Numbered from the stretch's first letter, positions 9,203 to 49,270 are shown. The stretch: DNA of 64,000 nucleotides from Patescibacteria group bacterium (GCA_028718605.1 JAQULM010000001.1:193699-257698); one strand, 5' to 3'. Made by a program: numbers and translations. The notes: a model not told the origin generated them from the sequence alone.

Positions 9203-9231
9203 TTGACAAACCTTTGCGGGTATGGTAGTAT
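9203..9231 (+). promoter_or_regulatory. Sigma70-like promoter TTGACA-N17-TAGTAT upstream of the CAP-domain gene
   Basis: The sequence is ccttgacaaacctttgcgggtatggtagtatg. Confidence 0.5.
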
Positions 9232-9263
9232 GTTTTGTTAATGAAACATCTGCATCAGGAATA

Positions 9264-10958: not shown

Positions 10959-11000
10959 AAAGGGTTTCCACTGCCTATCAACAAAGCATTTCGATAAATA

Positions 11001-11024
11001 AAACCCCTGGAAACAGGGGTTTTG
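11001..11024 (+). terminator. Rho-independent terminator with a GNRA-type loop
   Basis: The sequence is aaacccctggaaacaggggttttg. Confidence 0.8.
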
Positions 11025-11118
11025 CGTTCCTTGCCGCCACTGCCTTGTGCCGCTTGACCAAAGAATGGAAATCGAATAAAATAAAGTAATTACTTCAAAT
11101 TAAACGTACGGAAAAACT

Positions 11119-12231
11119 ATGCAGAATCTACCATCGAACCGGGGGGTACGGCTCTTCGGGCTCAGTGCACTCATGCTGATCGCCCTTGGGTGTGCGTGCG
11201 CAGTACCTGCCAGTGCCCAAAATACGAACAACCCGCCGCATATCACCTCGGAACCGTCCGCAACTGTCGCTGCAGGCGATCCTTATGCGTACCAACTCGA
11301 GGCAACGGATCAGGACAACGATACCGTGACCTTCTCGCTCACGGCAGCGCCGAAAGGCATGGTGATATCGAACGGCGTTATTTCATGGAATCCGACGGCT
11401 GTTGGCGTGTACAATGTCGTCATCGACGCAACTGATGGGAACGAGGGTTACGATACCCAGGCGTGGCACGTTACGGTACAACCATCGGTAGTTTCATTAT
11501 TAAAAATTATCCCCAACGAACGTCCGACCGTGATCGAGATTGGCGCTACCCAAAAATTTACTGCAACAGCGTATGATGCTTACGATAACGAGCTCAGTGG
11601 CGCAACTATTGCATGGACAACGGATGAAAAAACTGGCGTCGTTGATACTGACGGCACGTTTAGCGCGCGAAAAGGCGGCATCGGCTTTATTGCGGCGTCG
11701 ATTGGCGAAACAAGCACTTCAATCGGAATCGTCGTAAAAGATACACGGACTGAACAAGTAACGCCAGCCGCGAACGCGAATACGAACACAAACGCGGGCC
11801 AGGCGGCGTCAACCGAAACCACCAACACTGCGGCACAGCAAACGGTTACGAACACAAACAGCGCACTACCACAAACCACCACCGATACCGATGGGCCGCG
11901 TGTCCCGCTTTTAGCCGTCGACACGGGCGTTGGGATCGAAACTGCCTGCAAATACTGGTCAATGGGCACACTGTTGCTCTCGCTTGCCATATACCTTATC
12001 GGACTTGGCGCGTACTACACATTCACGAAAAACCGCCGCTTTCCTTTCTGGTGGATTTTTCCCATCGTTTTTACAGGGGTGGGTGTCACCCTCTACTATC
12101 GTCTCTTGTGCACGGATGCGACCGTCTGGTGGCCGTGGGTCTTGATCGCATTCGGTATACTGCTTACCTGGTACCATAAGTTTGGTGGGCGCGCAGTCAG
12201 CCAGAGTTCGCAAACAGAACTTCCGTTTTAA
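11119..12231 (+). CDS. Surface protein with a signal peptide, a cadherin-like/putative-Ig (He_PIG-like) domain, a Big_2 bacterial Ig-like domain, a T/N-rich linker and three or four C-terminal TM helices
   Basis: The signal peptide reads MQNLPSNRGVRLFGLSALMLIALGCACAVPASA. The domains read ...PPHITSEPSATVAAGDPYAYQLEATDQDNDTVTFSL... and ...IIPNERPTVIEIGATQKFTATAYDAYDNELSGATIAWTTDEK.... The C-terminus is hydrophobic. Confidence 0.7.
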   Translation: MQNLPSNRGVRLFGLSALMLIALGCACAVPASAQNTNNPPHITSEPSATVAAGDPYAYQLEATDQDNDTVTFSLTAAPKGMVISNGVISWNPTAVGVYNVVIDATDGNEGYDTQAWHVTVQPSVVSLLKIIPNERPTVIEIGATQKFTATAYDAYDNELSGATIAWTTDEKTGVVDTDGTFSARKGGIGFIAASIGETSTSIGIVVKDTRTEQVTPAANANTNTNAGQAASTETTNTAAQQTVTNTNSALPQTTTDTDGPRVPLLAVDTGVGIETACKYWSMGTLLLSLAIYLIGLGAYYTFTKNRRFPFWWIFPIVFTGVGVTLYYRLLCTDATVWWPWVLIAFGILLTWYHKFGGRAVSQSSQTELPF

Positions 12232-12312
12232 GCGTGCCGCGGTTTTGTGCGATACAATAATCCCCGCTCATGGACACCATGAGGCGACGGTTTGGTGTTG
12301 GAGCAATACTCG

Positions 12313-13128
12313 CTAGCGAAGCAGCACGTACGCAATAACTCCAGCGCCGAGTGCAAAGCGGTAGTATGCAAATGCGGAAAGTTTATGGTGCTCGAGGTAC
12401 CGGAGGAGGAATGCGATCGCGATATATCCAACAATGGCTGACGTAATGAAACCGGCAAGCATCATCATCCATTGATCCGAGGAAATGCCCGCCGAAGCCG
12501 CGTCGAGCATTTTTTTCATACCTGCGCCAAATACAATAGGCGCCGACAGGAGAAACGAAAATCGTGCAGCCTCCTGTCTCGAAAGGCCGAAGAATATGCC
12601 GGTAACGATGGTCATGCCAGAGCGCGATACGCCAGGCAAAAGCGCGAGAGCTTGCGCGCATCCAATAAGGACGGACCGGCAAAAACCAAGGTTCGCAATA
12701 TCAAGTCGCTGCCTTGAAAAACGCTCGACAACCAGAAACAGCACCCCGACCCCGATGAGGAGCCCAGCAACAAGCCATAAGTTCCTGAATGCCGAATCCG
12801 CGAGGTCAGAAAGCGCAATGCCGGCAATCACGCCTGGCACAGTCGCGGCAACGAGAAACCACGCAATGCGCTGGTTCTGGTCCTCCCGTAGTTTCCAATT
12901 GGCAAAGCTCCTGAAAAATGCTACGATGATAGCGCGAATGTCGCCCCAAAAAAATACGAGAATAGCAACGAGCGTCCCAAGATGCAGAGCCACGTCAAAG
13001 CTCAAGTCATCGAACAGGGAAAAATCGATAAGCTCGTGGGCGATTACCAAATGCCCAGAGCTTGAAATCGGCAAAAACTCGGTGATCCCCTGGATACAGC
13101 CCAATACGATTGACTGAATTATTTCCAT
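12313..13128 (-). CDS. uppP: Undecaprenyl-diphosphatase (BacA/UppP)
   Basis: The N-terminus reads MEIIQSIVLGCIQGITEFLPISSSGHLVIAHELI, and the protein is an 8-TM membrane protein. Confidence 0.9.
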   Translation of the reverse strand: MEIIQSIVLGCIQGITEFLPISSSGHLVIAHELIDFSLFDDLSFDVALHLGTLVAILVFFWGDIRAIIVAFFRSFANWKLREDQNQRIAWFLVAATVPGVIAGIALSDLADSAFRNLWLVAGLLIGVGVLFLVVERFSRQRLDIANLGFCRSVLIGCAQALALLPGVSRSGMTIVTGIFFGLSRQEAARFSFLLSAPIVFGAGMKKMLDAASAGISSDQWMMMLAGFITSAIVGYIAIAFLLRYLEHHKLSAFAYYRFALGAGVIAYVLLR

Positions 13129-14228: not shown

Positions 14229-15413
14229 TTAATCCCTGAAAAGGACGCCCTCGCGGGAAAATATCTTAGTAGCGATATATATTGATGCGGCGGCAGCGGC
14301 TAAGAGCACTAGAATCGTAATCCCTACATGGAGACCGCTCGTTTCTCCCATCAGGCTCTCTTTAAACACGAAAACGGCATTCAAGGGCGGCACGAAATAG
14401 AGCGCCAACGGCGGCTTGAAGCCGGGAATCGAAGTGAAGATTGATACCGGCAAAATCGCCAGTAAATAGAATGGCGTAACGTAATTCTGCGCTTCCTTGT
14501 AGCTCTTGGCAAAAATTGCGACCGCAAGCAGCATGCCGGCAAACATCACGGAGAGAATAATGCCGATTCCGAGCATCAAGAGGCTCGTGGTCAGAGTAAT
14601 ATCAAATGCAACCGCTTCTCCGAAATTCGGCGGCCAGAGTTTAAATGCCGCATACATGCTCCCAACCGACAGGACAACCGATGTAATCGCGGTCGTTGCA
14701 ACAGCGGTAAATTTGCCGGTGACGATCGATAGGCGCGAGAGCGGCGTCACTAAAATGGATTCAAGGGTCTTACGTTCCTTTTCACCCGCTGATACATCAA
14801 TGGCTACGTACATTCCGCCCATGATCGAAAACAATACGATAAACATCGGCAGCAGCAGCCCAAGGAAATACCCCCCGCGTTCCTGCTCTGACGCGATATC
14901 CTGGCGAGTAATGACAATGCTATGCAGAACTCCCGGATTCACGCCTGCTTCATCCAGTTTGCCGATTGTGATGCTTTCTCGGTAGAGGGCAAGTGCGGCT
15001 TCCACTTTCTGCGCAGCATTGAGGGATTTCTGGTCTGTGCTACGGGCATATATGTTGAGCGTAACCGGCTCGCCTGCTGCGATCTGTTCCTGGAAGTCAG
15101 CAGGAACCTGGAGATAGGTCTGCAGCTCACCTGCTGCGATCTTTTCCTGGAAATTCTCAGGTGCATCTTTTAATTCTATCTTGTCCTGGTTGTCGAGAAA
15201 TTCAACCAACGCCGGCGCTGCTGCTTCGTCGGAAATGGCGACTTGCGCAACCTGCTCTACAGCTGACTTCTGCTGGGATTCCTGCAGCTTGATGCTGCCA
15301 ATCATGATCAGCGGCATGAAGACGATCGGCATCACGATCGCGGTCATGAGCGTACGCCGGTCGCGAATCGTGTCCCGGAGCTCTTTTTTACAGATCGTCC
15401 AAATAGCGCCCAT
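14229..15413 (-). CDS. ABC-2 type transporter permease (NatB-like)
   Basis: The N-terminus reads MGAIWTICKKELRDTIRDRRTLMTAIVMPIVFMPLIM, followed by a large extracytoplasmic loop and five C-terminal TM helices. Confidence 0.75.
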   Translation of the reverse strand: MGAIWTICKKELRDTIRDRRTLMTAIVMPIVFMPLIMIGSIKLQESQQKSAVEQVAQVAISDEAAAPALVEFLDNQDKIELKDAPENFQEKIAAGELQTYLQVPADFQEQIAAGEPVTLNIYARSTDQKSLNAAQKVEAALALYRESITIGKLDEAGVNPGVLHSIVITRQDIASEQERGGYFLGLLLPMFIVLFSIMGGMYVAIDVSAGEKERKTLESILVTPLSRLSIVTGKFTAVATTAITSVVLSVGSMYAAFKLWPPNFGEAVAFDITLTTSLLMLGIGIILSVMFAGMLLAVAIFAKSYKEAQNYVTPFYLLAILPVSIFTSIPGFKPPLALYFVPPLNAVFVFKESLMGETSGLHVGITILVLLAAAAASIYIATKIFSREGVLFRD

Positions 15414-37884: not shown

Positions 37885-39492
37885 TTACTGATCACTGCCG
37901 ACCACCTCGCCGCCAAACAACTCAAGCGCCTGTTTCATAGTTGTGTCATCCCCCGGTTTGTCTGCAGGTGCCGTACCACGCGGTGCGAGCTTCTCGTAGT
38001 CATCAGACTTAAGCACTGTCATCGACAACCGGCATCGGGTGCCGAGCACCTCACTCACCGCGTCCTCGATCGCATGCCGCGCCTCGGGGATTTTCAATCG
38101 GTCGGCATGCAAGGTATGCCGGAAACCTACGGTGAGCACGCCTTTTTCGAATGATACCGGCACACCGACTTTCAATGATAAACTCAAAGAATGATTAGCT
38201 TCCTTAACGCGCCTCATGATTGCGCTCCACTGCCGTTGGATACTTTCGAAAGAAGCGGCATGTGCCGCACTCTGTGGCGCTGAATCCCGAGGACGTTCAG
38301 ATTTCATATGGTCACTTTTTTTGGGCGCCTCGGTTCGGGGCGGCCGGACAGGTTTTTTCGGAATAGGAGGGGCAGGCTGCGCAGCGGACTGGTTCGTTTC
38401 AAGCGGTTCGCACAACTCGAGGACGGCAAGTTCCAACGGAAGCTGAGCGATCGGTGAATACCTGAAATCGCGGGTTTTCTTGAGCAGTACCTCAATGATC
38501 GTATTCAGCCGCATCAGCGGCGTCCCGGCAACAGTTTCACGAAGGCGTTGCAGCACCTCCTGCTCAAGTTCAAGTGCTTCGAGTTGATCAACCGAACCGG
38601 TAACCTTATAGATAATCAGGGTTCTGATGAAGTCAATGGCATCCCGCGCAAACGCTTCGATGGCGATGCCGTCATCAATTAAAGTATTCACGAGTATAAT
38701 CGCGCCGGCCGCATCCCCGGCAACTAAGCGATTGAACCATTCTATCACTGTCAACAGGTTCGACCGAGGAATGACGAGCGACGCTTCTTCGTCCGTCACG
38801 GTACTGCCTCCGATCGACACGATTTGCCCGAGGAGCACTTCTGCATCGCGCACCGACCCTTCAGCATGCCGTGCGATGCTCGTAAGAATTGTGTCATTGA
38901 CCCCTACTTTTTCCGATTCAGCAATCCAGCGCAACCGGCGCACGAGATCTTCGATGCCGACGCGCTTGAAATCAAACCGCTGGCAGCGTGAAATGATCGT
39001 TTCAGGGACACGGTGGATCTCAGTGGTTGCCAGGATAAAAATGACATGCGCGGGCGGCTCTTCGAGCGTTTTCAGAAGCGCATTGAATGCGGCGGTAGAA
39101 AGCATATGCACCTCATCGATAATGTACACTTTATAGGGGGCGCGCTGCGGGGTAAATCTGCTGTTCTCGATGATATTTTCCCGGACATTGTCGACCCCGG
39201 TGTGTGATGCTGCATCGATTTCCAGAAGGTCGAGAGACCTCCCGGACGTGATTTCCTTGCAAAACGAGCATGACTCGCAGGGCTCGCCGCTTTTGCGATT
39301 TGAGCAATTTGCCGCTTTTGCGAGTAACCGTGCCGTCGTGGTCTTACCAACGCCGCGCGGACCGGTAAACAGATACGCATGGCTGATTCGGCCATGTTCT
39401 ATCTCGCTCAAGAGCGTAACCTTGATAGCGTGTTGGCCGACCAGATCTTCGAACCGTTGCGGCCGGTACTTCCTATAGAGCGCTTGTGCCAT
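37885..39492 (-). CDS. dnaX: DNA polymerase III subunit gamma/tau
   Basis: The N-terminus reads MAQALYRKYRPQRFEDLVGQHAIKVTLLSEIEHGRISHAYLFTGPRGVGKTTTARLLAKAANC. The zinc module CSNRKSGEPCESCSFC and the motif IIDEVHMLS are present. Confidence 0.95.
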   Translation of the reverse strand: MAQALYRKYRPQRFEDLVGQHAIKVTLLSEIEHGRISHAYLFTGPRGVGKTTTARLLAKAANCSNRKSGEPCESCSFCKEITSGRSLDLLEIDAASHTGVDNVRENIIENSRFTPQRAPYKVYIIDEVHMLSTAAFNALLKTLEEPPAHVIFILATTEIHRVPETIISRCQRFDFKRVGIEDLVRRLRWIAESEKVGVNDTILTSIARHAEGSVRDAEVLLGQIVSIGGSTVTDEEASLVIPRSNLLTVIEWFNRLVAGDAAGAIILVNTLIDDGIAIEAFARDAIDFIRTLIIYKVTGSVDQLEALELEQEVLQRLRETVAGTPLMRLNTIIEVLLKKTRDFRYSPIAQLPLELAVLELCEPLETNQSAAQPAPPIPKKPVRPPRTEAPKKSDHMKSERPRDSAPQSAAHAASFESIQRQWSAIMRRVKEANHSLSLSLKVGVPVSFEKGVLTVGFRHTLHADRLKIPEARHAIEDAVSEVLGTRCRLSMTVLKSDDYEKLAPRGTAPADKPGDDTTMKQALELFGGEVVGSDQ

Positions 39493-39572
39493 AGACAGAC
39501 ATCATTTATCACAAAATTCCAAAACTACATGCGGTAGTATTGTATACCAACTGCAGGCCAAACGCAACTCAC

Positions 39573-40220
39573 TTACGTTTGCGAACCAATCTCCTCGATA
39601 TCTTCTACGTGCGCATCGAGGGGTTGGTGCGGTGTTTCCGCGCCTGGTGTCAAAGTGGCCGTTTGTGCGGTTTCGCCGGCTTCTTTGATAATATTTTCGA
39701 CCGCAGCCCAATCGCTCTCCCCTGCCTTCGGGACCAACACAACGACCTCGTCTCCTGGCTCGCCTTTAAAATAGGTAATGCTCGCAAGTAAAACCTTGAA
39801 TGCCTTCTCCCCGACGATAACGCGGTATTCGTCAGTCGTTTCATCCTTGGTCAGAATGCCGACCAAGCGTCCGCGCTCAACCGGCCCGATTTGCTTGTAG
39901 AGAAATGAACCGTCCGGTTTGATAGTCAATTTGAGCGTGTCGCCGACGACGAGTTTTGATTTGGATGCATAGTTTGCCGGTATGCTGTACTGCTTGCCGT
40001 CCGGACCGAGCATGTGCTGCCCGTCAAAGATGCCTTCAATGATTTTTTCATCGCCATTCGCGCTTACCTTGCCGAGTTCCTTGGCGCGGTCAGCAACTTC
40101 CGCAAGTGCCTCGTCTCCATTGCCGACGATCTGCGCTAAAATTTCCCGTGCACCCTCGAGGGAGATGTGTGCGGTATCGATGAGTTTCTTGATTTGGTCT
40201 AATTTATTTTGTTTTGCCAT
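39573..40220 (-). CDS. Hypothetical protein
   Basis: The ORF is 215 aa, acidic, with no recognised motif. Confidence 0.5.
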   Translation of the reverse strand: MAKQNKLDQIKKLIDTAHISLEGAREILAQIVGNGDEALAEVADRAKELGKVSANGDEKIIEGIFDGQHMLGPDGKQYSIPANYASKSKLVVGDTLKLTIKPDGSFLYKQIGPVERGRLVGILTKDETTDEYRVIVGEKAFKVLLASITYFKGEPGDEVVVLVPKAGESDWAAVENIIKEAGETAQTATLTPGAETPHQPLDAHVEDIEEIGSQT

Positions 40221-40369: not shown

Positions 40370-40939
40370 TTAGTGCTTCTCTATTGTAACAGATTGCATT
40401 GATTCGTCAATAATATACTTATAGATTGGAATATGGCGCTCGTCGGGATGGTCTTTGGCTACCGCATGCCAGCCAGGGATGGGAAAACTGTATGAAATGA
40501 CCGTCGTGCCCGGATGAAGTTCATGCTGAAATTTCAGCCCGAGCTTCTTCATCGCCTTGGGTGTCAGAAAGCAAAAAAGCACATCCGCTTGCCCGAGATC
40601 CCGATTGAGAAAATCGCCGTACCGCACTTCGATCCGTTTTGAAAAACCGCGAAACCATACGCGCACCTTTGACCAGAAGTACAGGAGGAATGAAATTTCG
40701 TAGCCGACCACGAGCCGCGCTTTTGTATTATTCGCCAGAGCGATTAATATCCGGCCATCACCCGAACCAAGATCGTATACGACATCTCTCTCATTGATGC
40801 CGGCGAGGGTAACAATCCGCTGGATGTCTTTCTTGAATACCGGCAGCCACGGCGATGCGCGAAAACCGGCGTATGCAGCAGTGCCAAAGACGAGAAGAAT
40901 TACGCAAAGCAAGCCAATATATAACAATGTGGTAAGCAT
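40370..40939 (-). CDS. Membrane-anchored class I SAM-dependent methyltransferase-like protein
   Basis: An N-terminal TM helix is followed by motif I VVYDLGSGDGRILI. Confidence 0.55.
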   Translation of the reverse strand: MLTTLLYIGLLCVILLVFGTAAYAGFRASPWLPVFKKDIQRIVTLAGINERDVVYDLGSGDGRILIALANNTKARLVVGYEISFLLYFWSKVRVWFRGFSKRIEVRYGDFLNRDLGQADVLFCFLTPKAMKKLGLKFQHELHPGTTVISYSFPIPGWHAVAKDHPDERHIPIYKYIIDESMQSVTIEKH

Positions 40940-41020
40940 ACTAGTATCATAAAGTCTTTCAACTTTTTGTCAATCGCAAAACCAGCCCCTCGTTGCGAGG
41001 GGCTGGCAATGTAACTGGAA

Positions 41021-42553
41021 TTACTCAGCGATAGGCTCTGCGGCTGCTTTTAACGCGGGAATCGTGCTCGAATTCATCACATCATGCTGTAGCATCGGCC
41101 AGAGCTGGCCTGCCCTTGAGCCAGATACTTTATAGACGTGCAGCTTTGACGGGTAGGTATACTCACTGACTATCATTTCTGCTGTTCTATTCGCGTCAAC
41201 ATCAGCGAATGCCGGTTGCGTTACGCCTCCTCCGTGAGCTCCAACTAATGGAAAGCCCCTGAGTGTCTTATGGGCATAATCCCACCCATAGAGATTATCA
41301 TCCTTGGAGAAACCGAATATCTCAAGCTTTCCGTCGTTATTGATATCGGCGAGCGATGGTTTCTGAATTGGGGCTACCCACGTCAACCACGGGCTATCCT
41401 CCCCAAATGTTGACCCGTCATGATTCCAAATGCGGATATAGCTTGCTTCACACATATCACCATCACAAATTGCATCCCAAAATCCAATGTACATGACGAT
41501 TTCGAGTTTTTTATCACCATCAACGTCACCCATGACCGGAACTGAACTTGATTCCATTGCCCCTGATATATCAGCTGGAAAACCGGGAACGTTTGAACAG
41601 TCTTCATTGATCGCATACAGCACATAGCGTGGAAACTGGGCATCAGTGCGATCTATGGTGAATACGACCTCGTCTGAACCATCACCATCTAAATCTCCAA
41701 TCGCTGGCGTAAACGGCCGTCCATAGATTGGCGTTCCCAAATCATCCGTCCCGAGATTAAATTTGATCGGCCAGCAGCTGCCGAAAGCCTCCCCTGCGGA
41801 CGTAAACGCCGAAACCTGGTCCCCTTCCGCCGCAATGAGTTCTACTGAGCCATCGGCATTCAAATCACCCGCCCCAACAGTACGCATATTATACGGTTCG
41901 AGCGCATGTGGCCATCCGGTGAGCTCAGCACCGGTGCGGTCGTATACATGCAATGCAGTGCCGGCGATGACGGCGACTTCATCAAACCCGTCTTTGTTCA
42001 GATCTGCGACCACGGGCGCTTCATACACATCACTCGTAAATTGTTTTGGCCAGCCAGGAAGCGGCGTTCCGTCATGATTGACAACATACACGGATGGCGT
42101 TGCAGTCCCATACCATCGTGAAACTGAAAAAACGATCTCTGCCTGCGGATCGCTGTCCAGCTTGGTTGATGTTTTAGCGCTTTGGACAAAGCTGTCCTCA
42201 GCAAGCCGAATTGGCCATCCGGTGAGAACCTTGCCGCTCCGGTCGTATGCACTGATCGTTCCCTTCGCTCCCTGAACAATTTCCAGCTCAGCGTCAGTGT
42301 CTAGATTTACCGCCAAAGGCGATGCGGTGGTATATGACGGGAGTGTCTGGGGCCATCCGCTTAGTTCTGAAATAAGCGGTGTGACCGGCTCAGTGCCAGT
42401 ATCAATAGGATTCTCGACTCGTAACAGCGGCGTAGCTGCCATGAGCAAGCCGAGCGACGCTGCGGCACCGATGCCAACCGTTAAAAGCACGCCGATGCCG
42501 GTTTTTATTTCGACTTTTTGCTTGACTTCCGTCTCGATTGAAGGTTTTGCCAT
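41021..42553 (-). CDS. Secreted or membrane-anchored FG-GAP/VCBS-repeat beta-propeller protein
   Basis: Repeated Ca-binding loops are present: DLNKDGFDEVAV, GDLNADGSVELIAA, GDLDGDGSDEVVF, GDVDGDKKLEIVM, ADINNDGKLEIFG and ADVDANRTAEMIV. Confidence 0.75.
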   Translation of the reverse strand: MAKPSIETEVKQKVEIKTGIGVLLTVGIGAAASLGLLMAATPLLRVENPIDTGTEPVTPLISELSGWPQTLPSYTTASPLAVNLDTDAELEIVQGAKGTISAYDRSGKVLTGWPIRLAEDSFVQSAKTSTKLDSDPQAEIVFSVSRWYGTATPSVYVVNHDGTPLPGWPKQFTSDVYEAPVVADLNKDGFDEVAVIAGTALHVYDRTGAELTGWPHALEPYNMRTVGAGDLNADGSVELIAAEGDQVSAFTSAGEAFGSCWPIKFNLGTDDLGTPIYGRPFTPAIGDLDGDGSDEVVFTIDRTDAQFPRYVLYAINEDCSNVPGFPADISGAMESSSVPVMGDVDGDKKLEIVMYIGFWDAICDGDMCEASYIRIWNHDGSTFGEDSPWLTWVAPIQKPSLADINNDGKLEIFGFSKDDNLYGWDYAHKTLRGFPLVGAHGGGVTQPAFADVDANRTAEMIVSEYTYPSKLHVYKVSGSRAGQLWPMLQHDVMNSSTIPALKAAAEPIAE

Positions 42554-42668
42554 AATGAACTCATTACTTTTTCAATTTTATAATAAAAAATCTAATTATA
42601 TTTTTTACTAGCATCAGCATACCTATAAACTCCTCGTCCCTCCGCTCTTTTCCCCTCTGTATGTTGCA

Positions 42669-43283
42669 TTAAAGATGTGTTGTTAGATTTAATGCAGCCT
42701 GATGAAATTCATCAACGCTTTTATTATTAGCTTTGAAAGCCCTTGCGAGAGTGCTTAATTGTTTGATGGCAACATCAATTTCGGTTGTTTCGGGAATCCT
42801 GCCAGGAAGGGCCCCTTGCTCGGTAGCAGCAACCTTAGTATTGACAATGTCTTGAAATATTTGGTGAACCTGATCCCAGTCCCAATCTACTACCTGCTCC
42901 GTCTTCTCTTTTTCTTGAGGAGATTCTATTTGAGTCGGTTCAACCGCTCGGCCACCGGCAAAATTTGCAAGCCCCGCCAAAACGATAAATGTTTTCATTA
43001 AATGTGCAATCTTCCCCTTTCCAAACCGAGAAAGAAAACCACCCTCATTGTCGTCTGTAATACGGTCATGTGCTTCAAGTGCTATTTCGCAATTTGACTT
43101 TGTCGGATCGATATCAAAAGAAGTTGATAGTTCATGAAAAGCATTGTCTTGATTGAATTCTCCGGAACATTCTTGTATTGACTCAATCGATGCCCAAATT
43201 TTATCATCAACGGATTCGGTATGCTCAACCTCTCCATTCGAACTCTCGATCATGGGATCGAATGACATTTCAGGATTCGGCAT
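42669..43283 (-). CDS. Hypothetical acidic protein
   Basis: The start was moved to an internal ATG (MPNPEM...) to avoid an 82-nt overlap with the upstream ATPase gene. Confidence 0.4.
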   Translation of the reverse strand: MPNPEMSFDPMIESSNGEVEHTESVDDKIWASIESIQECSGEFNQDNAFHELSTSFDIDPTKSNCEIALEAHDRITDDNEGGFLSRFGKGKIAHLMKTFIVLAGLANFAGGRAVEPTQIESPQEKEKTEQVVDWDWDQVHQIFQDIVNTKVAATEQGALPGRIPETTEIDVAIKQLSTLARAFKANNKSVDEFHQAALNLTTHL

Positions 43284-43332
43284 TGTGGCGCAAATTATTA
43301 AAAAATTATTGGCATACCCGCGCGAACGCCCA

Positions 43333-45858
43333 TCAAACGTTGCGAACCCCCATTGACGGACCCTGCGTTGCCGCGGGCTGGCCCAAACGCGATTTCTCCA
43401 TGGTTTCCTCTTCAACTATTTTCCGGTCCCTGCCGTACTTCATACGTGAAAGTTCAATGAGATAGCTGGCCATTTCGGGGCTCCCCGGCTGGGGCGGGTA
43501 CGTCTTCATATTAAACGGTTTGGAGGACGTATTATCAATGAGGAGTTTCGCGTTCGCGGTATACATGTCGACGTTAATGACATCGTACTCGTTGAATACG
43601 GGCTCGAATTCCTTGGCGAGAATCTCAGCGTCGTCCACGCCCACACGGAACGCGATGAGCGTTCCGGCATTGCCGAACACCGCATCCCGTATTTTCGTAT
43701 CATTATTGTCACGGACGAGCTGGCCGACGTATTGGTGGGCCATGGTGAGATTGAGGTGGTACTTGCGCGCCTCGGACAGGATCGTCGCGATCGAATCAGT
43801 AACAAAATTCTGGAACTCATCGATATACAGGTAGAAATCGCTGCGCTGCTCCTGCGGCATGCTCACCCGGCGCATTGCAGCCATCTGCAGTTTCGATACG
43901 ATAATCAATCCGAGGAGGTTTGAGTTCACTTCGCCCGTGGTGCCCTTTGCTAGATTCACAAGCAGGATTTTTTTCTTGTTCATGACCTCATCGAAATCAA
44001 ATCCGGAATGCTCCTGGCCGATGATGTTTCGCATCATGCTGTTCTCGACGAACCGGCCGACTTTTGAAATCAAGTACCCGAGCATCTCGGACTTGTGAAA
44101 ATCGGACGTCTTAGCCATCTCTTTTTCCCAGAACGCACGGACGATCGGATCCTTCACCTTTGCCAGCTTATACTTCTGGTACGCGGGATCAGTGAACATG
44201 CGCGGTATTTCCGCGATCGTGCCGGGATGCTCCTCGTCCTCCATGAGGGTGAGCATCACATTGCGCATGTTGTGCTCGAACATCGGGCCGATCATTTCCG
44301 GCGGGAATAATTTGTAGAATATCGCAACCATTTCCTGGACTGCGAAATCCTTTTCTTCCGGGCTCCTGGCCTCCAGCATATTCAAGCCAATCGGCCTCCC
44401 CATATCAGACGGATTGAAATGAATGACGTCCTCCGCGCGCTCCCGGGGGATGTGCGGCAGGATATCGTTGATCAGGTCGCCGTGGGGATCAACAACGCCG
44501 ACTCCCTCACCGTTCAGAATGTCCTGAATAATCATATTGGAAAGCAAAACCGATTTGCCGACGCCGGATTTGCCGATGACGTACACGTGCCGCTGGCGAT
44601 CCCGCTGCTTGATCCGGATAATGGTATCCTGCCCCCGGTATTCGCAGTGCCCGAGAACAAGCCCCTCAGTGGGAATATTCGGCGGTGGCGGCGCTTTGCG
44701 TGCCGTGAGCCACCTGATATTCGGCGTTTCGGTCGTCGGCAGCGGAAAGTGGAATACGCTCGTCATCTCCTCCGTATTCAGTATCAACCCACATTTCGGC
44801 ATAAACCGGCGATAGATGAAATCCCTGACGAGCTTATCTGTATTGACGCCCTTGCGCACAAGGCCATTGCCGTACTCATAGAGCGTAAACTGGCTATAGG
44901 TATTTTCGAGATTTTTTAAAATTGCTTGCGCCCGCTCCTTGCTCTGCGCGGCAACAACAATGCGGATATTCACTTCCATGCCCGCTTTGGACGTCTTGTC
45001 CTCGAGGCTCTTCGCGATTTCCTCCTCGCGCGGAGACAGCTGGTGCGTCGGCTCAAATTCCTCCTTCTTCTTTTTTGGAAAAAATGTCCTCGCCAATTCA
45101 ACTATAAAGCCAACGAACCCGCGGCGCCCAACCGCGTCTTTCAGCTTCTTACCCATGTGCATCTCGCGTGCAGCGTGGGCGCCCCAGTTATGCCATTGCG
45201 CTTTCGCGGAACGAACCACGTACTGGATCGCGATTCCCTCATTCTCCGCGACTTTTGAGAGCGCATTCGTGATGGAGTTCAGCGGGTCAATGTCCAGCTG
45301 CTTATACGTGCGGATCGGAAAAATATACGGCTTCTTGAATTTAAAGGCTGTTCCCGTGACTGCGCTGGTCGGATGGAATAGGTTATATTCATCGACTTCC
45401 TCTATTTGGGCATCCGGGTACTGCGCGTGGATGTGCTGCTCCATGTACTGCTGCAAGTACCGCGGCACAACGACATAGAATGAAATTAGCCCATGGAGCG
45501 CGACGATCTCGAGCGAAAAATGGTCATGCCTTCCGGCTATGTATGAACCCATACCGCGTTCGGCTTTCATGCCCCCGAGCACGGTAAACCACGCTTCCGC
45601 GTCTGCAAGCAGCTCCGGAACTGTACGCCGCTGCCTGCCTTCCTCCTCCTGGACTGCCGCCTCTTTGGGAAGCGTAACGAGAAGGAAAACTTTATGGAAT
45701 TCAAGTGGCAGCGCACGCTGGCTCCGCAACCGGCGCATGATAATGCCAAGGGCGCCTGCAACAATACAAAGCGCGGCCAGGCTCACGAGGATGATAGTGA
45801 AGGCCGGATTGGCGAGAAGTTCGCTGAACCCACCTGTGTTTGCTGAGCCGAATGGCAT
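43333..45858 (-). CDS. VirB4/TrbE/TraE-like type IV secretion or conjugation ATPase (FtsK/HerA superfamily) with an N-terminal TM helix
   Basis: At 841 aa, Walker A YVIGKSGVGKSV lies near residue 430, followed by VVDPHGDL. The Walker B-like motif is YLYIDEFQNF. Confidence 0.6.
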   Translation of the reverse strand: MPFGSANTGGFSELLANPAFTIILVSLAALCIVAGALGIIMRRLRSQRALPLEFHKVFLLVTLPKEAAVQEEEGRQRRTVPELLADAEAWFTVLGGMKAERGMGSYIAGRHDHFSLEIVALHGLISFYVVVPRYLQQYMEQHIHAQYPDAQIEEVDEYNLFHPTSAVTGTAFKFKKPYIFPIRTYKQLDIDPLNSITNALSKVAENEGIAIQYVVRSAKAQWHNWGAHAAREMHMGKKLKDAVGRRGFVGFIVELARTFFPKKKKEEFEPTHQLSPREEEIAKSLEDKTSKAGMEVNIRIVVAAQSKERAQAILKNLENTYSQFTLYEYGNGLVRKGVNTDKLVRDFIYRRFMPKCGLILNTEEMTSVFHFPLPTTETPNIRWLTARKAPPPPNIPTEGLVLGHCEYRGQDTIIRIKQRDRQRHVYVIGKSGVGKSVLLSNMIIQDILNGEGVGVVDPHGDLINDILPHIPRERAEDVIHFNPSDMGRPIGLNMLEARSPEEKDFAVQEMVAIFYKLFPPEMIGPMFEHNMRNVMLTLMEDEEHPGTIAEIPRMFTDPAYQKYKLAKVKDPIVRAFWEKEMAKTSDFHKSEMLGYLISKVGRFVENSMMRNIIGQEHSGFDFDEVMNKKKILLVNLAKGTTGEVNSNLLGLIIVSKLQMAAMRRVSMPQEQRSDFYLYIDEFQNFVTDSIATILSEARKYHLNLTMAHQYVGQLVRDNNDTKIRDAVFGNAGTLIAFRVGVDDAEILAKEFEPVFNEYDVINVDMYTANAKLLIDNTSSKPFNMKTYPPQPGSPEMASYLIELSRMKYGRDRKIVEEETMEKSRLGQPAATQGPSMGVRNV

Positions 45859-45888
45859 AGGTACGCCGCTGTAGGCGGTAAGTGTTTA

Positions 45889-46422
45889 CTAACCTTGTTT
45901 ATGTTTTTGTTCGTGCAGATTGAGGATGCGGTCTGCCTTGATCTTCGCTTCCTGCTCGAGGAAAAATTTGTTGATACCGGGAATCATCCTCAGCCAGTCG
46001 CGCAAGAGCCCGAGAATCTCCCTGACCTTTACCTTAACGTCACGTAACAGTAATTCAATTTTTGAAGCGGTTTCCTCACCCTTACGCTGGAATGCCATCT
46101 GCTGTTCTGGCGTCATCTGGAGAAAAAGCTCGTCAAGGTGCTCAGATAAGATATGCTCGATCTTCTGCAGTTCAGGGCTTTTTGGCATTGCGGGTGCCGG
46201 TTCTTGAACCGGTTCCTGAACTGGCGGCGGTGCGTACTGCCTGCGTGCCTGCTCATCCTCCCGTGCCTGTTCCCCTTGCACATCTGGCGCTGTTTCACGG
46301 GTCACTTCAGCTGGCCGCTCCCGGATTTCCTGGCCTCCAGGCTGCTGCTCCTGAAACTCAAAAATGTCCTCAATGTTCTGAGGTTTCTGATTTCCTTTTT
46401 CTATATCAGTCGGGGCTGGCAT
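45889..46422 (-). CDS. Hypothetical Pro/Gln/Glu-rich protein
   Basis: The protein has a low-complexity N-terminus and a helical C-terminus. Confidence 0.45.
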   Translation of the reverse strand: MPAPTDIEKGNQKPQNIEDIFEFQEQQPGGQEIRERPAEVTRETAPDVQGEQAREDEQARRQYAPPPVQEPVQEPAPAMPKSPELQKIEHILSEHLDELFLQMTPEQQMAFQRKGEETASKIELLLRDVKVKVREILGLLRDWLRMIPGINKFFLEQEAKIKADRILNLHEQKHKQG

Positions 46423-46535
46423 ATGCGGTTCATTCCAAAACCAAGAATTGCTTTGATATTACTGCACTATCATAACCTATTATATCATATTTTCTTAGAA
46501 AAATCAAGATTTTACCCAGATGTGCATAATACCCC

Positions 46536-46620: not shown

Positions 46621-47235
46621 ATGAACTCTTACAGAGGTTTCTCGAAGTGGGTGATTTGTATTGTCGCCCTTTTCATCATCATCGCTAACCCGATGCCTGC
46701 CAACGCCGGCATCGAGAAGGTTCCCAAGAAGGCCGCAAAGGTAGTGTTCTGGCCGTTGAAAACCGTCGGTAAGGCCATCGGAAAAGCAGTTACGCATTGC
46801 GTTAACGAAGGCCGCGCTCTGGAGGAGGCGGAGAACCGCAATCGGGATGATGTCAGTCGTCTTTGGAACATCTTCCTGACCGATGCCAATAAAGTCAATA
46901 TTGGCTTCAGTATCACGTGCGATGGCGCTCAGCTTATTGCACTGGTACAGTACAACGGCCCCTATAGCGGCAATGAAAAACTGACCATCCCGCAAATCAG
47001 CTTTGACAACGGGAAGCACTGGTCGGGGAAATATTTCCACAAGGACAAAAAGAGGAATGCCTGGACGCTCAAATTGGGCAAGGCGAGCTCGATGAAACGC
47101 GGATCAAGTTCGTTCAAGATCCGGATGAGGATCTATGATCCCGATATCGAGTTTGTCGATGGCAAAGAGCAGAAGGGCGACCCTCATTGGGGGCCGTGGG
47201 TGGAAAGTAGTGACTTCAGCCTTAGCTGGAGATGA
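46621..47235 (+). CDS. Secreted hypothetical protein
   Basis: The RBS is aaaggagag. The signal peptide is MNSYRGFSKWVICIVALFIIIANPMPANA. Confidence 0.65.
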   Translation: MNSYRGFSKWVICIVALFIIIANPMPANAGIEKVPKKAAKVVFWPLKTVGKAIGKAVTHCVNEGRALEEAENRNRDDVSRLWNIFLTDANKVNIGFSITCDGAQLIALVQYNGPYSGNEKLTIPQISFDNGKHWSGKYFHKDKKRNAWTLKLGKASSMKRGSSSFKIRMRIYDPDIEFVDGKEQKGDPHWGPWVESSDFSLSWR

Positions 47236-47377: not shown

Positions 47378-48385
47378 TTGTACTGCTGGTTTTCATGGAA
47401 CCCATGTATGTTTCAGAACTTCACACCAATGTCATACTCACTCATCCTCATACTGCTCGTCGTCGGTGCAGTTATTTTTTGGTTATACAAGGAAAACATT
47501 AAGGTACGCTCAAACTTTTCCGTGCTCAAACTCTACTCAAGAGACCTCTCGGCGCTCGCCCGCGCGGATGAGCTGGATCCGGTCATTGGCCGCGAGCATG
47601 AAGTCGAGCGCCTCATACAGATACTTTCGCGCCGGACAAAAAACAACCCCGTGCTGATTGGCCAGTCAGGTGTCGGAAAAACGGCGATCGTCGAAGGGCT
47701 GGCGAATAAAATCGCGGCTGGCAACGTGACAACCACTCTCACAAACAAACGCGTTTTATCTCTCGACTTGTCGGGCCTGGTCGCCGGTACGAAATACCGC
47801 GGTGAATTCGAGAAGCGCCTCAAATCGCTGGTTGATGAAATCATCGCTGCCAAGCGCGAAATCATTCTATTTATCGATGAAATGCATACGCTGGCAGACG
47901 CCGGCCAGGCAACCGGCGCGATTGACGCCGCAGACATCCTCAAACCGGCATTGGCGCGCGGCGAACTGCAAGTGATTGGCGCAACGACCATGGAAGAGTA
48001 CAAGAAATACGTGGAGCGTGACGCGACACTCGAACGCCGGTTCCAGCCGATCATGATCGATGAGCCGTCAGCAGAAAACACCGTCGAAATCCTGAAAGGC
48101 ATCCGCTCGCGCTACGAAAACCACCACCAGGTGAAAATCAGCGATGACGCGCTCAAGGCGTGCGTCGAGCTTTCCGGCAAATACATCCACGACCGCGTGT
48201 ACCCGGATAAAGCGATTGACCTCATGGACGAGGCTGCGGCAAAAGTGAAGCTCGCGAGCATTGCCCGCAAACCAACGATGCGCGCGGAAATGCTCACGGT
48301 TGGCCCGCAGGATATCGAGTCTGTGATTTCAGAATGGAAAGAGATCGGCCTCGGCATCTCAACGTCGGAAAACAAAAAAGGCTGA
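47378..48385 (+). CDS. Membrane-anchored Clp/Hsp100 D1-only AAA+ ATPase (ClpB/ClpC nucleotide-binding domain 1, without the N-domain, M-domain or D2)
   Basis: An N-terminal TM helix is present. The sequence reads [44 protein letters not shown]...[10 protein letters not shown]...[10 protein letters not shown]...[14 protein letters not shown]. The protein ends after a ClpB-like [17 protein letters not shown]. Confidence 0.7.
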
Positions 48386-48415: not shown

Positions 48416-49270
48416 ATGCCGGAACATACATCGGATACTTTTAACGCCATTGGCCAGCACGATTCCCCTCCCACAACGGGTGATGCTCCTGACGAAAGAA
48501 TACCGGTAACCGAAGTCGGGGAACCTGCAGAAACGACGCTCGAATCAGTAAACAACGTAGAACAACTTCTCGCTGCCTGGCTTAAGGAAAGCCGTGAAAC
48601 AACCGATAAAGACAGAAAGGTGGAATTGGCATACTGCATTCTGCAGATGAAGCAGGCGCTCGGCCTGGCACAGCTTGACGCCAGCGAAGTTCGAATCAGG
48701 GATTATGATCCTGGCACCGGGACTGTCGGTTTTTATGAAGAACAAAATGGTCAAACTGGTCAAGTCGGCATAACACCCAAAGGCCTCGAATTGCCGCCGG
48801 AGCATTTTGCAGACGTCTTGGTCCATGAAAGCGCGCATGCCGGAAAAAACACGCACGGCAGAAGAATTTTTGACGAAGGCTTTTGCGAGCTCCTCACGGT
48901 CAAAATTCTGCCCAACGCAATCCGCGGATTCTACCAGAAGGAACAGCAAAAAGCCCGCGAACTGTTCGATGAAGCGCACATGAACGATGCCCTGGAAAAA
49001 TACGATTTCGATAACCCGATGGCGCTCGTCGTGTATTACCTCGGCGTTGAACTGCATGACCGCTGGTCCCGCGTAAAAGCTGATTTTGCCCGAGAACAGT
49101 CAGACCCTGCGTTCGACGAGGCCGCTTTCCTGAAAAAATTCTTGGATGATAATGAAGACATCGAGCAGCAGTTAAAAGAAGGCGCGCCGGATATTTACCG
49201 TAAAATCGAAGCGGTCGGACTCGATTACGACAAAGCCGCGCTGGATATTCTAAAACATTTGGCAGCATAA
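48416..49270 (+). CDS. Hypothetical protein with an HExxH motif (VLVHESAHAG)
   Basis: The gene lies 30 nt downstream of the Clp-like gene. Confidence 0.45.
   Translation: MPEHTSDTFNAIGQHDSPPTTGDAPDERIPVTEVGEPAETTLESVNNVEQLLAAWLKESRETTDKDRKVELAYCILQMKQALGLAQLDASEVRIRDYDPGTGTVGFYEEQNGQTGQVGITPKGLELPPEHFADVLVHESAHAGKNTHGRRIFDEGFCELLTVKILPNAIRGFYQKEQQKARELFDEAHMNDALEKYDFDNPMALVVYYLGVELHDRWSRVKADFAREQSDPAFDEAAFLKKFLDDNEDIEQQLKEGAPDIYRKIEAVGLDYDKAALDILKHLAA

What the first reader, a model, noticed from the sequence alone, without database searches (positions are those of the whole stretch)
41021..46422. VirB4-like secretion ATPase locus with an FG-GAP beta-propeller protein and three unknown partner genes
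A gene block on one strand reads: Pro/Gln-rich 177-aa protein, 841-aa membrane-anchored VirB4/TrbE-like ATPase (Walker A near residue 430, the typical VirB4 position), acidic ~205-aa protein, 510-aa exported FG-GAP/VCBS integrin-like beta-propeller, and a membrane-anchored methyltransferase-like protein. None of the other canonical T4SS or conjugation parts (VirB6, VirD4, relaxase, pilin) is recognisable. That resembles the minimal, poorly understood VirB4-containing systems reported in some CPR and other reduced genomes. These might mediate DNA uptake or cell-cell contact rather than conjugation. The unknown neighbours are candidates for the missing structural components.
Basis: partly seen in the sequence, partly recalled or inferred. 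Interest (0 to 1): 0.55.

Follow-up and report, generated by a model that had tools for sequence, protein, structure and literature searches.

The report
Orphan coupling-protein ATPase of Patescibacteria
The large ATPase is not a VirB4 but a chromosomally fixed relative of conjugative coupling proteins (VirD4/TrwB type), very well conserved across Patescibacteria together with one small partner gene; the FG-GAP propeller and the acidic protein next to it are lineage-specific insertions, not parts of a secretion system.

Summary
The genes are there as described: 177-aa P/Q-rich protein, 841-aa single-TM ATPase (Walker A at 429-436), acidic 204-aa protein, anchored 510-aa FG-GAP propeller and a TM-anchored methyltransferase.

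- **ATPase class.** It passes the Pfam thresholds for coupling-protein families (T4SS-DNA_transf, TrwB_AAD_bind, TraG-D_C). It does not match CagE_TrbE_VirB or AAA_10. TrwB is the only solved homologue by sequence.
- **Position in real conjugation clusters.** In a B. subtilis plasmid its homologue sits beside a Replic_Relax gene, and a separate AAA_10 VirB4 is present.
- **Conservation.** The family is large in Patescibacteria (5,977 representatives at E≤1e-30). It is as conserved as CysS and lies among housekeeping genes: CysS – g177 – ATPase – (methyltransferase) – g215 – dnaX.
- **Partners.** Only the 177-aa gene is a co-conserved partner (71 of 75 loci). The 204-aa protein is an ORFan with aberrant GC3. 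The FG-GAP gene occupies a variable slot.

These orphan T4CP homologues were already counted in Patescibacteria by Quiñonero-Coronel et al. 2025. Their function is untested.

The parts
45889..46422 (-). g177: small conserved partner. The N-terminal ~80 residues are P/E/Q-rich and of low complexity. The C-terminal ~95 residues are conserved and carry the motif WLKxIPGVNKFFLEQEAKIKTD.
   Evidence: Immediately upstream on the same strand in 71 of 75 related loci that have upstream sequence. Also present next to a 48%-identical relative. 274 homologues, all unnamed or Patescibacteria, no Pfam family. Alignment A4.
46479..46507 (-). Promoter-like site (TTGATT-17-TATAAT with TG) upstream of g177.
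   Evidence: Consensus scan only. Weak evidence.
43333..45858 (-). 841-aa membrane-anchored ATPase of the VirB4/VirD4 superfamily, coupling-protein (TrwB/TraD/VirD4) type. GenBank names it 'type IV secretion system DNA-binding domain-containing protein'.
   Evidence: Pfam and NCBIfam; PDB sequence search; homologues; AlphaFold model with pLDDT 83 and fold search.
45739..45795 (-). Single N-terminal transmembrane helix (residues 22-40), followed by a basic stretch. Inferred topology is N-out/C-in, with the rest of the protein cytoplasmic.
   Evidence: Hydropathy; translation. 105 of 119 close relatives have exactly one such helix before Walker A.
44659..45711 (-). N-terminal cytoplasmic domain (residues 50-400, Pfam DUF8128), predicted to have a VirB4-N-terminal-domain-like fold.
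43384..44658 (-). C-terminal motor domain: RecA-like nucleotide-binding domain with an inserted all-helical domain (residues ~500-627). Walker A lies at 44551-44574 and Walker B at 43813-43836.
   Evidence: Pfam T4SS-DNA_transf 31 bits (GA 20.1), TrwB_AAD_bind 29.3 (GA 20.5), TraG-D_C 23.4 (GA 22). TrwB TM-score 0.63-0.65 at 16-18% identity. Motifs invariant in 43 sequences. Translations.
42669..43283 (-). g204: acidic ORFan inserted after the ATPase. Not a component of the conserved module.
   Evidence: Only itself found among 5.8 billion proteins. Absent from all 80 related loci. GC 0.418 and GC3 0.337, against GC3 0.54-0.68 in the conserved neighbouring genes.
41021..42553 (-). 510-aa anchored or exported FG-GAP beta-propeller protein: lineage-specific cargo of a variable slot between the ATPase and the methyltransferase.
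   Evidence: Pfam. Relatives in only 3 of 80 loci. 26% and 24% identical to propeller segments of 1416- and 1442-aa surface proteins in the same slot in L011 and L022; other large anchored proteins fill the slot in L004 and L012.
40370..40939 (-). TM-anchored class-I methyltransferase (archaeal protein-lysine methyltransferase-like): conserved syntenic neighbour with its own promoter-like site at 40946-40973.
   Evidence: NCBIfam NF041081 82 bits, below the cutoff of 200. Detected in 28 of 80 related loci and directly downstream of the ATPase in most of those. Promoter scan.
37885..40220 (-). g215 (39573-40220, conserved unknown) and dnaX (37885-39492): conserved housekeeping context of the module.
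   Evidence: g215 in 46 and dnaX in 52 of 80 loci, downstream on the same strand in nearly every case. The same order occurs next to a 48%-identical relative.

Best explanation
The core of the locus is a two-gene module, g177 plus the 841-aa ATPase. It is inherited vertically in the chromosome of Patescibacteria.

**What the ATPase is.** It is a domesticated descendant of the coupling-protein ATPase (T4CP; VirD4/TrwB/TraD type) of monoderm and archaeal conjugation systems. It has one membrane anchor, a cytoplasmic domain with the VirB4 N-terminal fold, and a TrwB-like motor with an all-alpha insertion.

**How it probably works (inferred).** It assembles as a membrane-associated hexamer and uses ATP to feed a substrate, DNA or an unfolded or adaptor-bound protein, to a membrane channel. 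The most likely channel is the relaxase-less Patescibacteria T4SS encoded elsewhere in the genome. The VirB4-like N-terminal domain would be the docking surface. g177 would act as an adaptor or regulator, as the small proteins encoded next to other T4CP genes do (TrwA with TrwB, PcfB with PcfC, CagZ with Cagβ).

**What is not part of it.** g204 and the FG-GAP propeller are insertions into a variable slot for surface proteins. The methyltransferase, g215 and dnaX are conserved neighbours with no shown functional link.

**Shown:** family assignment, architecture, intact ATPase motifs, co-conservation of g177, and non-conservation of g204 and the FG-GAP gene.
**Inferred:** hexamer formation, the substrate, coupling to a T4SS, and the role of g177.
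For: **Coupling-protein type**
- T4CP Pfam families pass their gathering scores, with no CagE_TrbE_VirB or AAA_10 hit.
- The best NCBIfam hits are TraD and VirD4-like models.
- TrwB is the only significant PDB sequence match, across the Walker A and Walker B regions.
- Fold search gives TrwB a TM-score of 0.63-0.65; Cagβ and DotL also match.
- The family HMM scores TrwB at 30.7 bits; the VirB4s TrwK and PrgJ score below zero and A. tumefaciens VirB4 is not reported.

**Homologues in real conjugation clusters**
- In B. subtilis plasmid NZ_CP154917 the full-length homologue (193.6 bits) is followed by a Replic_Relax gene. A separate AAA_10 VirB4 (387 bits) lies in the same operon.
- In a Natrinema plasmid the N-terminal domain and the T4CP part are adjacent ORFs beside other conjugal-transfer genes.

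**N-terminal domain**

**Core status in Patescibacteria**
- 3,422 hits in the word-indexed search and 5,977 representatives at E≤1e-30.
- Median identity 57% across 80 genomes, against CysS 55% and DnaX 42%.
- Housekeeping synteny; no integrase, relaxase or MPF genes in the window or in five annotated contexts.
- g177 is linked in 71 of 75 loci.

**Literature**
- 5,713 T4CP homologues were found in 2,918 Patescibacteria genomes, only 148 near virB4, with exaptation suggested (PMC12102498).
- In class ABY1, T4SS loci sit with comF, recG and radA.
Against: - No experiment bears on this family.
- In the one Patescibacterium with Tn-seq data (Ca. S. epibionticum) the T4CP homologue was not essential while the T4SS was (PMC12102498). 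That argues against obligatory coupling to the T4SS. It is also not shown that the Saccharibacterial gene belongs to this DUF8128 family.
- All curated equivalog models are missed by wide margins, for example SXT_TraD 50.7 bits against a cutoff of 366.
- Canonical T4CPs have a two-helix N-terminal membrane domain, which is absent here.
- Profile comparison with single VirB4 or VirD4 sequences was uninformative.
- I could not check whether this genome encodes a VirB4/VirB6 cluster elsewhere.
- The fold assignment of the N-terminal domain rests on a predicted model.
Confidence: 0.62

Rival explanations
1. The ATPase is a VirB4 proper and forms the core of a minimal T4SS. The neighbouring unknown proteins (g177, g204, the FG-GAP propeller, the methyltransferase) are its missing structural parts.
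For: - VirB4-like layout: an N-terminal domain of about 400 residues, then Walker A near residue 430.
- The N-terminal domain has the predicted VirB4 N-terminal fold.
- Full-length Foldseek hits to TrwK have the lowest E-values.
- A single N-terminal TM helix recalls VirB3-VirB4 fusions (own knowledge).
- An anchored FG-GAP protein recurs in the same slot in two relatives.
Against: - No CagE_TrbE_VirB or AAA_10 match. TIGR00929 VirB4_CagE scores 23.6 bits against a cutoff of 643.
- The family HMM gives VirB4s no score.
- The homologue coexists with a genuine AAA_10 VirB4 in a Bacillus conjugation operon.
- g204 is an ORFan.
- The FG-GAP protein is absent from 77 of 80 related loci.
- In most genomes the ATPase is followed directly by the methyltransferase, g215 or dnaX.
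Confidence: 0.08
2. A housekeeping DNA-handling motor unrelated to secretion. It would be an FtsK/HerA-like translocase used in chromosome segregation, in DNA repair, or in pulling in transforming DNA (a ComFA-like role).
For: - Conservation matches that of an aminoacyl-tRNA synthetase.
- Persistent linkage to dnaX, and in one distant relative to gyrB and gyrA.
- Sub-threshold DUF87/HerA and FtsK_SpoIIIE hits. The Bacillus homologue passes DUF87.
- HerA structures are among the fold hits.
- Patescibacteria depend on scavenged nucleotides and are naturally competent (PMC12857230).
Against: - HerA and FtsK HMMs stay below threshold while T4CP models pass.
- No NurA-like or Mre11/Rad50 neighbours were seen.
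- The N-terminal domain has the VirB4 fold, not a HerA HAS-barrel or an FtsK membrane domain.
- At least one Saccharibacterium is reported to have its own FtsK (PMC10768705, title list; not read in detail).
- Synteny with dnaX may be mere vertical inheritance.
Confidence: 0.18
3. A remnant of an integrated conjugative element or prophage, with the FG-GAP gene and g204 as cargo of that element.
For: - Full-length match to phrog_5156 (E 6.5e-83).
- Homologues in Bacillus phages G, SP-10 and SP8, and on plasmids of Bacillus, Streptomyces, haloarchaea and Sulfolobus.
- g204 has atypical GC3.
Against: - The ATPase and g177 keep the same housekeeping neighbours across 80 genomes.
- The ATPase has the highest GC3 of the 14 genes measured around the block (0.682).
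- No integrase, relaxase, Rep or repeat boundaries were seen.
- Only the 2.3-kb stretch holding g204 and the FG-GAP gene looks inserted.
Confidence: 0.05

Closest known systems
Type IV coupling proteins (T4CP): TrwB (R388), TraD (F, SXT), VirD4 (Ti), Cagβ, DotL
   Same: - RecA-like nucleotide-binding domain with an inserted all-alpha domain.
- Walker A context (hhhhG.tGsGKSvll...vvDP.GD), Walker B (hhhIDEh) and the following 'HQ...QL' strand align with TrwB.
- The Pfam T4CP families pass their thresholds.
- TM-score 0.63-0.65 to TrwB.
- Membrane anchored, with a small accessory gene immediately upstream, as with trwA-trwB and pcfB-pcfC.
   Different: - One TM helix plus a 350-residue cytoplasmic VirB4-like domain, in place of the two-helix N-terminal membrane domain.
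- No relaxase and no mating-pair-formation genes nearby.
- Vertically inherited in a housekeeping context.
- Curated equivalog scores are far below cutoff.
VirB4 / TrwK / TraC / PrgJ ATPases
   Same: - Two-domain layout with Walker A near residue 430.
- Same ATPase superfamily.
   Different: - No sequence match to the VirB4 N-terminal model (CagE_TrbE_VirB) or to AAA_10.
- The family profile does not score VirB4s.
- It coexists with a genuine VirB4 in plasmid homologue clusters.
- No VirB3, VirB6 or VirB8 neighbours were seen.
Orphan T4CP homologues of Patescibacteria (Quiñonero-Coronel et al. 2025, PMC12102498); Pfam DUF8128-containing proteins
   Same: This protein is 100% identical to a GenBank entry annotated as a T4SS DNA-binding-domain protein. 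It fits their description: VirD4-type homologues, about two per genome, almost never near virB4, possibly exapted.
   Different: The passages of that paper I read (keyword matches; sections 8 and 14) do not mention the VirB4-like N-terminal domain, the g177 partner or the dnaX-linked synteny. Whether their HMM hits include this exact family was not verified.
DUF87/T4CP-like proteins of Firmicute and haloarchaeal conjugative plasmids and Bacillus phages (B. subtilis NZ_CP154917 885-aa protein; Natrinema NZ_CP084475; phage G gp156)
   Same: Full-length homology that includes the N-terminal domain: 193.6 bits for the Bacillus protein, and 89.5 plus 135 bits for the split Natrinema pair. Phage G gp156 aligns over residues 105-799.
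   Different: - These sit in mobile elements, next to relaxase-like and VirB4 genes.
- Only 20-29% identical.
- No g177 homologue beside them.

Membership tests
VirB4 (CagE/TrbE/TraC) ATPases | N-terminal domain matching Pfam CagE_TrbE_VirB (PF03135), or the VirB4 N-terminal fold | tested here: inconclusive
VirB4 (CagE/TrbE/TraC) ATPases | C-terminal ATPase matching AAA_10 (PF12846) or TIGR00929 VirB4_CagE at family cutoff | tested here: not met
   No AAA_10 hit. TIGR00929 scores 23.6 bits against a cutoff of 643.1. The family HMM scores TrwK at -2.0 and PrgJ at -5.6 bits and does not report A. tumefaciens VirB4.
VirB4 (CagE/TrbE/TraC) ATPases | Encoded with VirB3, VirB6 and VirB8-type channel genes | tested here: not met
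   None among the 28 further ORFs scanned in the 64-kb window. None in the Pfam-annotated neighbourhoods of five family members. Short ORFs were not scanned.
Type IV coupling proteins (VirD4/TraG/TraD/TrwB) | Nucleotide-binding domain plus all-alpha domain, recognised by T4SS-DNA_transf, TrwB_AAD_bind and TraG-D_C | tested here: met
   31.0, 29.3 and 23.4 bits against gathering scores of 20.1, 20.5 and 22. TrwB is the only significant PDB sequence hit. TM-score 0.63-0.65.
Type IV coupling proteins (VirD4/TraG/TraD/TrwB) | N-terminal membrane domain with two TM helices and a periplasmic loop | tested here: not met
   One hydrophobic helix (residues 22-40), followed by a 350-residue soluble domain.
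Type IV coupling proteins (VirD4/TraG/TraD/TrwB) | Genetic linkage to a relaxase and/or mating-pair-formation genes | tested here: not met
   Absent in the window and in related Patescibacteria loci. Present only for distant plasmid homologues.
Type IV coupling proteins (VirD4/TraG/TraD/TrwB) | Hexamer with a central channel; substrate-stimulated ATPase | not testable with these tools
   Only a monomer model was made. Walker A and B and the neighbouring motifs are invariant in 43 sequences.
HerA / FtsK-SpoIIIE translocases | Match to DUF87 (HerA central) or FtsK_SpoIIIE at the gathering score; HAS-barrel or FtsK gamma domain; NurA partner | tested here: not met
   DUF87 22.2 bits against GA 23.2; FtsK_SpoIIIE 15.4 against 24; NF040819 HerA 13.7 against 970. 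The N-terminal domain is not a barrel. No NurA-like neighbour was seen.
Patescibacteria DUF8128-T4CP family | PF26449 (DUF8128) N-terminal domain followed by a TrwB_AAD_bind/T4SS-DNA_transf motor; length about 830-890 aa; one TM helix | tested here: met
   Precomputed domains. 56-77% identity over at least 89% of the length to the 120 listed relatives. Full-length match to phrog_5156.
FG-GAP/VCBS beta-propeller proteins (the 510-aa neighbour) | Multiple FG-GAP repeats; export signal | tested here: met
   FG-GAP_3 76.3 bits in 4 stretches and FG-GAP 46.6 bits. N-terminal hydrophobic segment at 16-44.

The most novel reading that the evidence does not exclude
The g177-ATPase pair is a self-standing, phylum-wide translocation module peculiar to Patescibacteria. 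It would be a coupling-protein motor that kept a VirB4-type docking domain and was captured for an essential cell function, for example moving scavenged DNA or a host-directed protein across the membrane. On that reading it would represent an evolutionary intermediate, or a chimera, between VirB4 and VirD4.
Probability: 0.2. Interest if true: 0.75.

Novelty: new variant of a known kind. Interest (0 to 1): 0.42.

Why it matters
Patescibacteria make up a large share of bacterial diversity and live attached to other cells. Their T4SS is the only one known to be essential for its bearer, yet it lacks a recognisable coupling protein in its own gene cluster (PMC10633639).

This family is a coupling-protein-type motor conserved as strongly as an aminoacyl-tRNA synthetase. 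It has a VirB4-like docking domain and a dedicated small partner. That makes it an obvious candidate for the missing energising or recruiting component, or for a separate DNA-handling machine.

It also bears on how VirB4 and VirD4 diverged, because it combines a VirB4-type N-terminal fold with a VirD4-type motor.

For annotation, the practical lesson is that the FG-GAP protein and the acidic ORFan should not be read as T4SS parts.

Tried and rejected
1. **Profile against single sequences.** hhalign of the family alignment against A. tumefaciens VirB4 and VirD4 gave probabilities of 4.6% and 2.0%. Single-sequence templates are too weak, so this was uninformative.
2. **Fusions of g177 with the ATPase.** I searched 269 family proteins and found none.
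3. **g177 against TrwA, PcfB and the small ORF upstream of the Bacillus homologue.** No significant similarity. The 'accessory protein' analogy is therefore positional only.
4. **Pfam scan of six long relatives, five of them with C- or N-terminal extensions (1,045-2,006 aa) and one (1,210 aa) a duplicated motor.** Nothing informative was found in the extensions.
5. **Cluster-member look-up for taxonomy of distant representatives.** Only one was named, from Woesebacteria.
6. **Literature search for 'DUF8128'.** No paper found.
7. **PDB sequence searches for g215 and the FG-GAP protein.** No hits.
8. **Mobile-element remnant reading.** Considered and rejected because of the conserved housekeeping synteny.
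9. **Rfam and tRNA scan.** Only tRNA-Pro and tRNA-Gln were found. No structured RNA lies in the locus.
Full report
**Observation.** The window is part of contig JAQTSE010000003.1 of a Patescibacteria MAG, GCA_028711455.1. On the minus strand lie, in order:
- g177 (45889-46422)
- an 841-aa ATPase (43333-45858)
- g204 (42669-43283)
- a 510-aa FG-GAP protein (41021-42553)
- a 189-aa methyltransferase (40370-40939)
- g215 (39573-40220)
- dnaX (37885-39492)

- g177 is P/Q-rich.
- The ATPase has one hydrophobic helix (residues 22-40), Walker A GKSGVGKS at 429-436 and Walker B FYLYIDEF at 675-682.
- g204 is acidic (pI 4.5).
- The 510-aa protein has an N-terminal anchor and FG-GAP repeats.
- The methyltransferase has an N-terminal TM helix.

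No other T4SS or conjugation family appeared among the 28 further ORFs scanned in the window. The rest of the window is ordinary CPR chromosome: purine salvage, DnaK/DnaJ, CysS and large DUF11 surface proteins.

**What the ATPase is by sequence.** Pfam places the C-terminal half in the coupling-protein families, all above their gathering scores:
- T4SS-DNA_transf: 31 bits
- TrwB_AAD_bind: 29.3 bits
- TraG-D_C: 23.4 bits

There is no hit to CagE_TrbE_VirB or AAA_10. DUF87/HerA and FtsK_SpoIIIE stay below threshold. The best NCBIfam hits are TraD models (50.7 and 38.3 bits) and a VirD4-like model. VirB4_CagE gets 23.6 bits against a cutoff of 643, and every hit is far below its equivalog cutoff.

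TrwB is the only significant solved homologue by sequence. It aligns at the Walker A and Walker B regions. An HMM built from 43 family members scores TrwB at 30.7 bits. VirD4 and PcfC, and the VirB4s TrwK and PrgJ, score at or below zero, and A. tumefaciens VirB4 is not reported.

**What it is by structure.** A full-length AlphaFold model (pLDDT 83) matches TrwB with TM-score 0.63-0.65 at 16-18% identity. It also matches Cagβ, DotL and, more weakly, HerA. Full-length TrwK/VirB4 chains have the lowest E-values but poor superposition (TM about 0.3), as expected if two domains match in a different relative orientation.

I therefore modelled residues 50-400 alone (pLDDT 82, pTM 0.81):
- Foldseek agrees: the five hits with E≤0.001 are all TrwK chains.

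The protein thus combines one TM helix, a domain with the VirB4 N-terminal fold (Pfam DUF8128) and a TrwB-like motor.

**Homologues in real conjugation clusters settle the orthology.** tblastn finds full-length relatives (20-29% identity, N-terminal domain included) in several places:
- plasmids of Bacillus, Streptomyces, haloarchaea and Sulfolobus
- Bacillus phages G, SP-10 and SP8

In B. subtilis plasmid NZ_CP154917 the homologue (193.6 bits to the family HMM) opens an operon. A Replic_Relax gene follows it directly. The same operon holds conjugal-transfer genes and a separate 847-aa ATPase that is a clear AAA_10 VirB4 (387 bits) and does not match the family HMM.

In a Natrinema plasmid the N-terminal domain (375-aa ORF, 89.5 bits) and the T4CP part (1,031 aa, 135 bits) are adjacent separate genes. 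They lie beside a pilin gene and another conjugal-transfer gene.

The family therefore fills the second-ATPase, coupling-protein slot of monoderm and archaeal conjugation systems. This fits the proposal that the Patescibacteria T4SS derives from the MPF-FATA class (PMC12102498).

**Status in Patescibacteria.** The family is very large:
- 3,422 hits in the word-indexed search; the 120 listed are at least 56% identical.
- 22,654 representatives at E≤1e-3 and 5,977 at E≤1e-30 in the exhaustive search.

Across 80 related genome loci (Kerfeld-, Falkow-, Uhr-, Magasanik-, Kuenen-, Komeili- and Veblenbacteria, and others) the median identity is 57%. That compares with 55% for CysS and 42% for DnaX in the same loci.

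The neighbourhood is housekeeping and conserved: CysS, g177, ATPase, optionally the methyltransferase, g215, dnaX. The same order is seen beside a 48%-identical relative. More distant members lie between pheST and gyrBA, or in other non-mobile contexts.

None of the neighbourhoods examined contains integrase, relaxase or mating-pair-formation genes. The ATPase has the highest GC3 of the 14 genes measured around the block. This is a vertically inherited core gene, not a mobile element.

Quiñonero-Coronel et al. (PMC12102498) counted 5,713 VirD4-type homologues in 2,918 Patescibacteria genomes. Only 148 were near virB4, and the authors raised the possibility of exaptation.

**The neighbours.**
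- **g177** is the one real partner. It lies immediately upstream on the same strand in 71 of 75 loci with upstream sequence, with a median gap of 76 nt between aligned segments. It also sits beside the 48%-identical relative. Its 274 homologues are all unnamed or from Patescibacteria and have no Pfam family. The N-terminal half is low-complexity. The C-terminal ~95 residues are strongly conserved, with the motif WLKxIPGVNKFFLEQEAKIKTD. It is never fused to the ATPase and shows no similarity to TrwA or PcfB.
- **g204** has no homologue among 5.8 billion proteins and none in the 80 loci. Its GC3 is 0.337, against 0.54-0.68 in the conserved neighbouring genes.
- **The FG-GAP protein** has relatives in only 3 of 80 loci. 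In two of them (L011, L022) a 1,416- or 1,442-aa anchored surface protein in the same slot contains a propeller 26% or 24% identical to it. In L004 and L012 other large anchored proteins fill the slot. In most genomes the ATPase is followed directly by the methyltransferase, g215 or dnaX. The space after the ATPase is therefore a variable slot for surface-protein genes, not a conserved component position.
- **Promoter-like sites.** One lies before g177 and another before the methyltransferase. This is consistent with g177, the ATPase and the inserted genes forming one transcription unit (weak evidence).

**Mechanism (inferred).** The Walker A and B motifs and the TrwB-like 'AHQ...QL' strand are invariant, so the protein is very likely an active NTPase. 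By homology with TrwB and VirD4 it should form a membrane-associated hexamer that hands a substrate to a channel.

In VirB4, the N-terminal domain contacts VirB3 and VirB8 in the inner-membrane complex (own knowledge of the R388 structures, the entries matched). The equivalent domain here is therefore the likely docking surface, and g177 the likely adaptor or regulator.

The probable channel is the relaxase-less T4SS of Patescibacteria. In class ABY1 that system lies beside comF, recG and radA. In Saccharibacteria it is essential but lacks a recognisable coupling protein in its own cluster (PMC10633639). Against obligatory coupling, the T4CP homologue of Ca. S. epibionticum was not essential.

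A stand-alone DNA-handling role (FtsK, HerA or ComFA-like) remains possible, given the dnaX linkage and the degree of conservation.

**Verdict.**
It is a T4SS-superfamily ATPase without the usual companions, but of coupling-protein type, and only one of the proposed partners is real.
- The family is already annotated and has been counted in the literature. Its architecture, its partner gene and its housekeeping-grade conservation are, as far as my searches show, undescribed. I therefore rate it a new variant of a known kind, of moderate interest.

Noticed in passing
window 47378-48385 (+): A 335-aa ORF encodes an N-terminal TM helix followed by a ClpA/B-type first AAA module and AAA_lid_9 only. 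No gene is listed there in the GenBank calls for this contig. It may be a truncated or pseudogenised ClpB, or a membrane-anchored single-ring AAA protein.
   Followed up: partly
window 40370-40939 (-): TM-anchored small class-I methyltransferase. Its best match is the archaeal protein-lysine N-methyltransferase model NF041081 (82 bits, below the cutoff of 200). It is detected in 28 of 80 related loci and follows the ATPase directly in most of those. Its target is unknown.
   Followed up: partly
window 39573-40220 (-): g215 is a 215-aa acidic protein with no Pfam, NCBIfam or PDB match. It is conserved at a median 58% identity and lies just upstream of dnaX in 46 of 80 related genomes. It is a conserved Patescibacteria unknown, possibly replication-linked.
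   Followed up: partly
L004:10509-15002, L011:10540-14790, L012:10501-13164, L022:10121-14449 and 14611-15336; window 41021-42553: The genes occupying the slot after the ATPase all begin with a similar N-terminus: a basic stretch, then T/E/Q-rich residues, then a long hydrophobic helix. The rest of each protein is very different. This might be a shared anchor or sorting signal of Patescibacteria surface proteins. It was not compared with surface proteins encoded elsewhere.
   Followed up: no
L091:8794-9921 and 9911-13006 (Natrinema plasmid NZ_CP084475): In haloarchaeal plasmids the DUF8128/VirB4-N-terminal-like domain and the T4CP motor are separate, overlapping adjacent ORFs. The N-terminal domain is therefore an independent module.
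   Followed up: partly
Bacillus phage G JN638751.1 90967-93135 (gp156); phage SP-10; SPO1-like phage SP8: Large lytic Bacillus phages carry full-length homologues of this ATPase family (20-25% identity; phrog_5156, function unknown). No role for a coupling-protein-like ATPase in these phages is known to me.
   Followed up: no
representatives P0290-P0379: About a third of the distant family representatives (46 of 144) have no TM helix before Walker A, and many of the longer ones carry a 100-200-residue N-terminal extension instead. Others have 400-1,200-residue C-terminal extensions with no Pfam match. These look like soluble and giant sub-families.
   Followed up: partly
window 55-3795, 5542-8865, 9222-10958, 11119-12231 (+): A run of large secreted or surface proteins: DUF11, SpaA-like and SdrD_B repeats, a CAP-domain protein and a He_PIG Ig protein. 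This is typical CPR adhesin-like cargo. The low-GC stretch at 4-6 kb lies between two of them.
   Followed up: no
window 46621-47235 (+) and 48416-49270 (+): Two further genes between g177 and cysS have no counterpart in any of the 80 related loci. One is a 204-aa secreted basic protein and the other a 284-aa acidic protein. The upstream side of the module is therefore also a variable region in this genome.
   Followed up: partly
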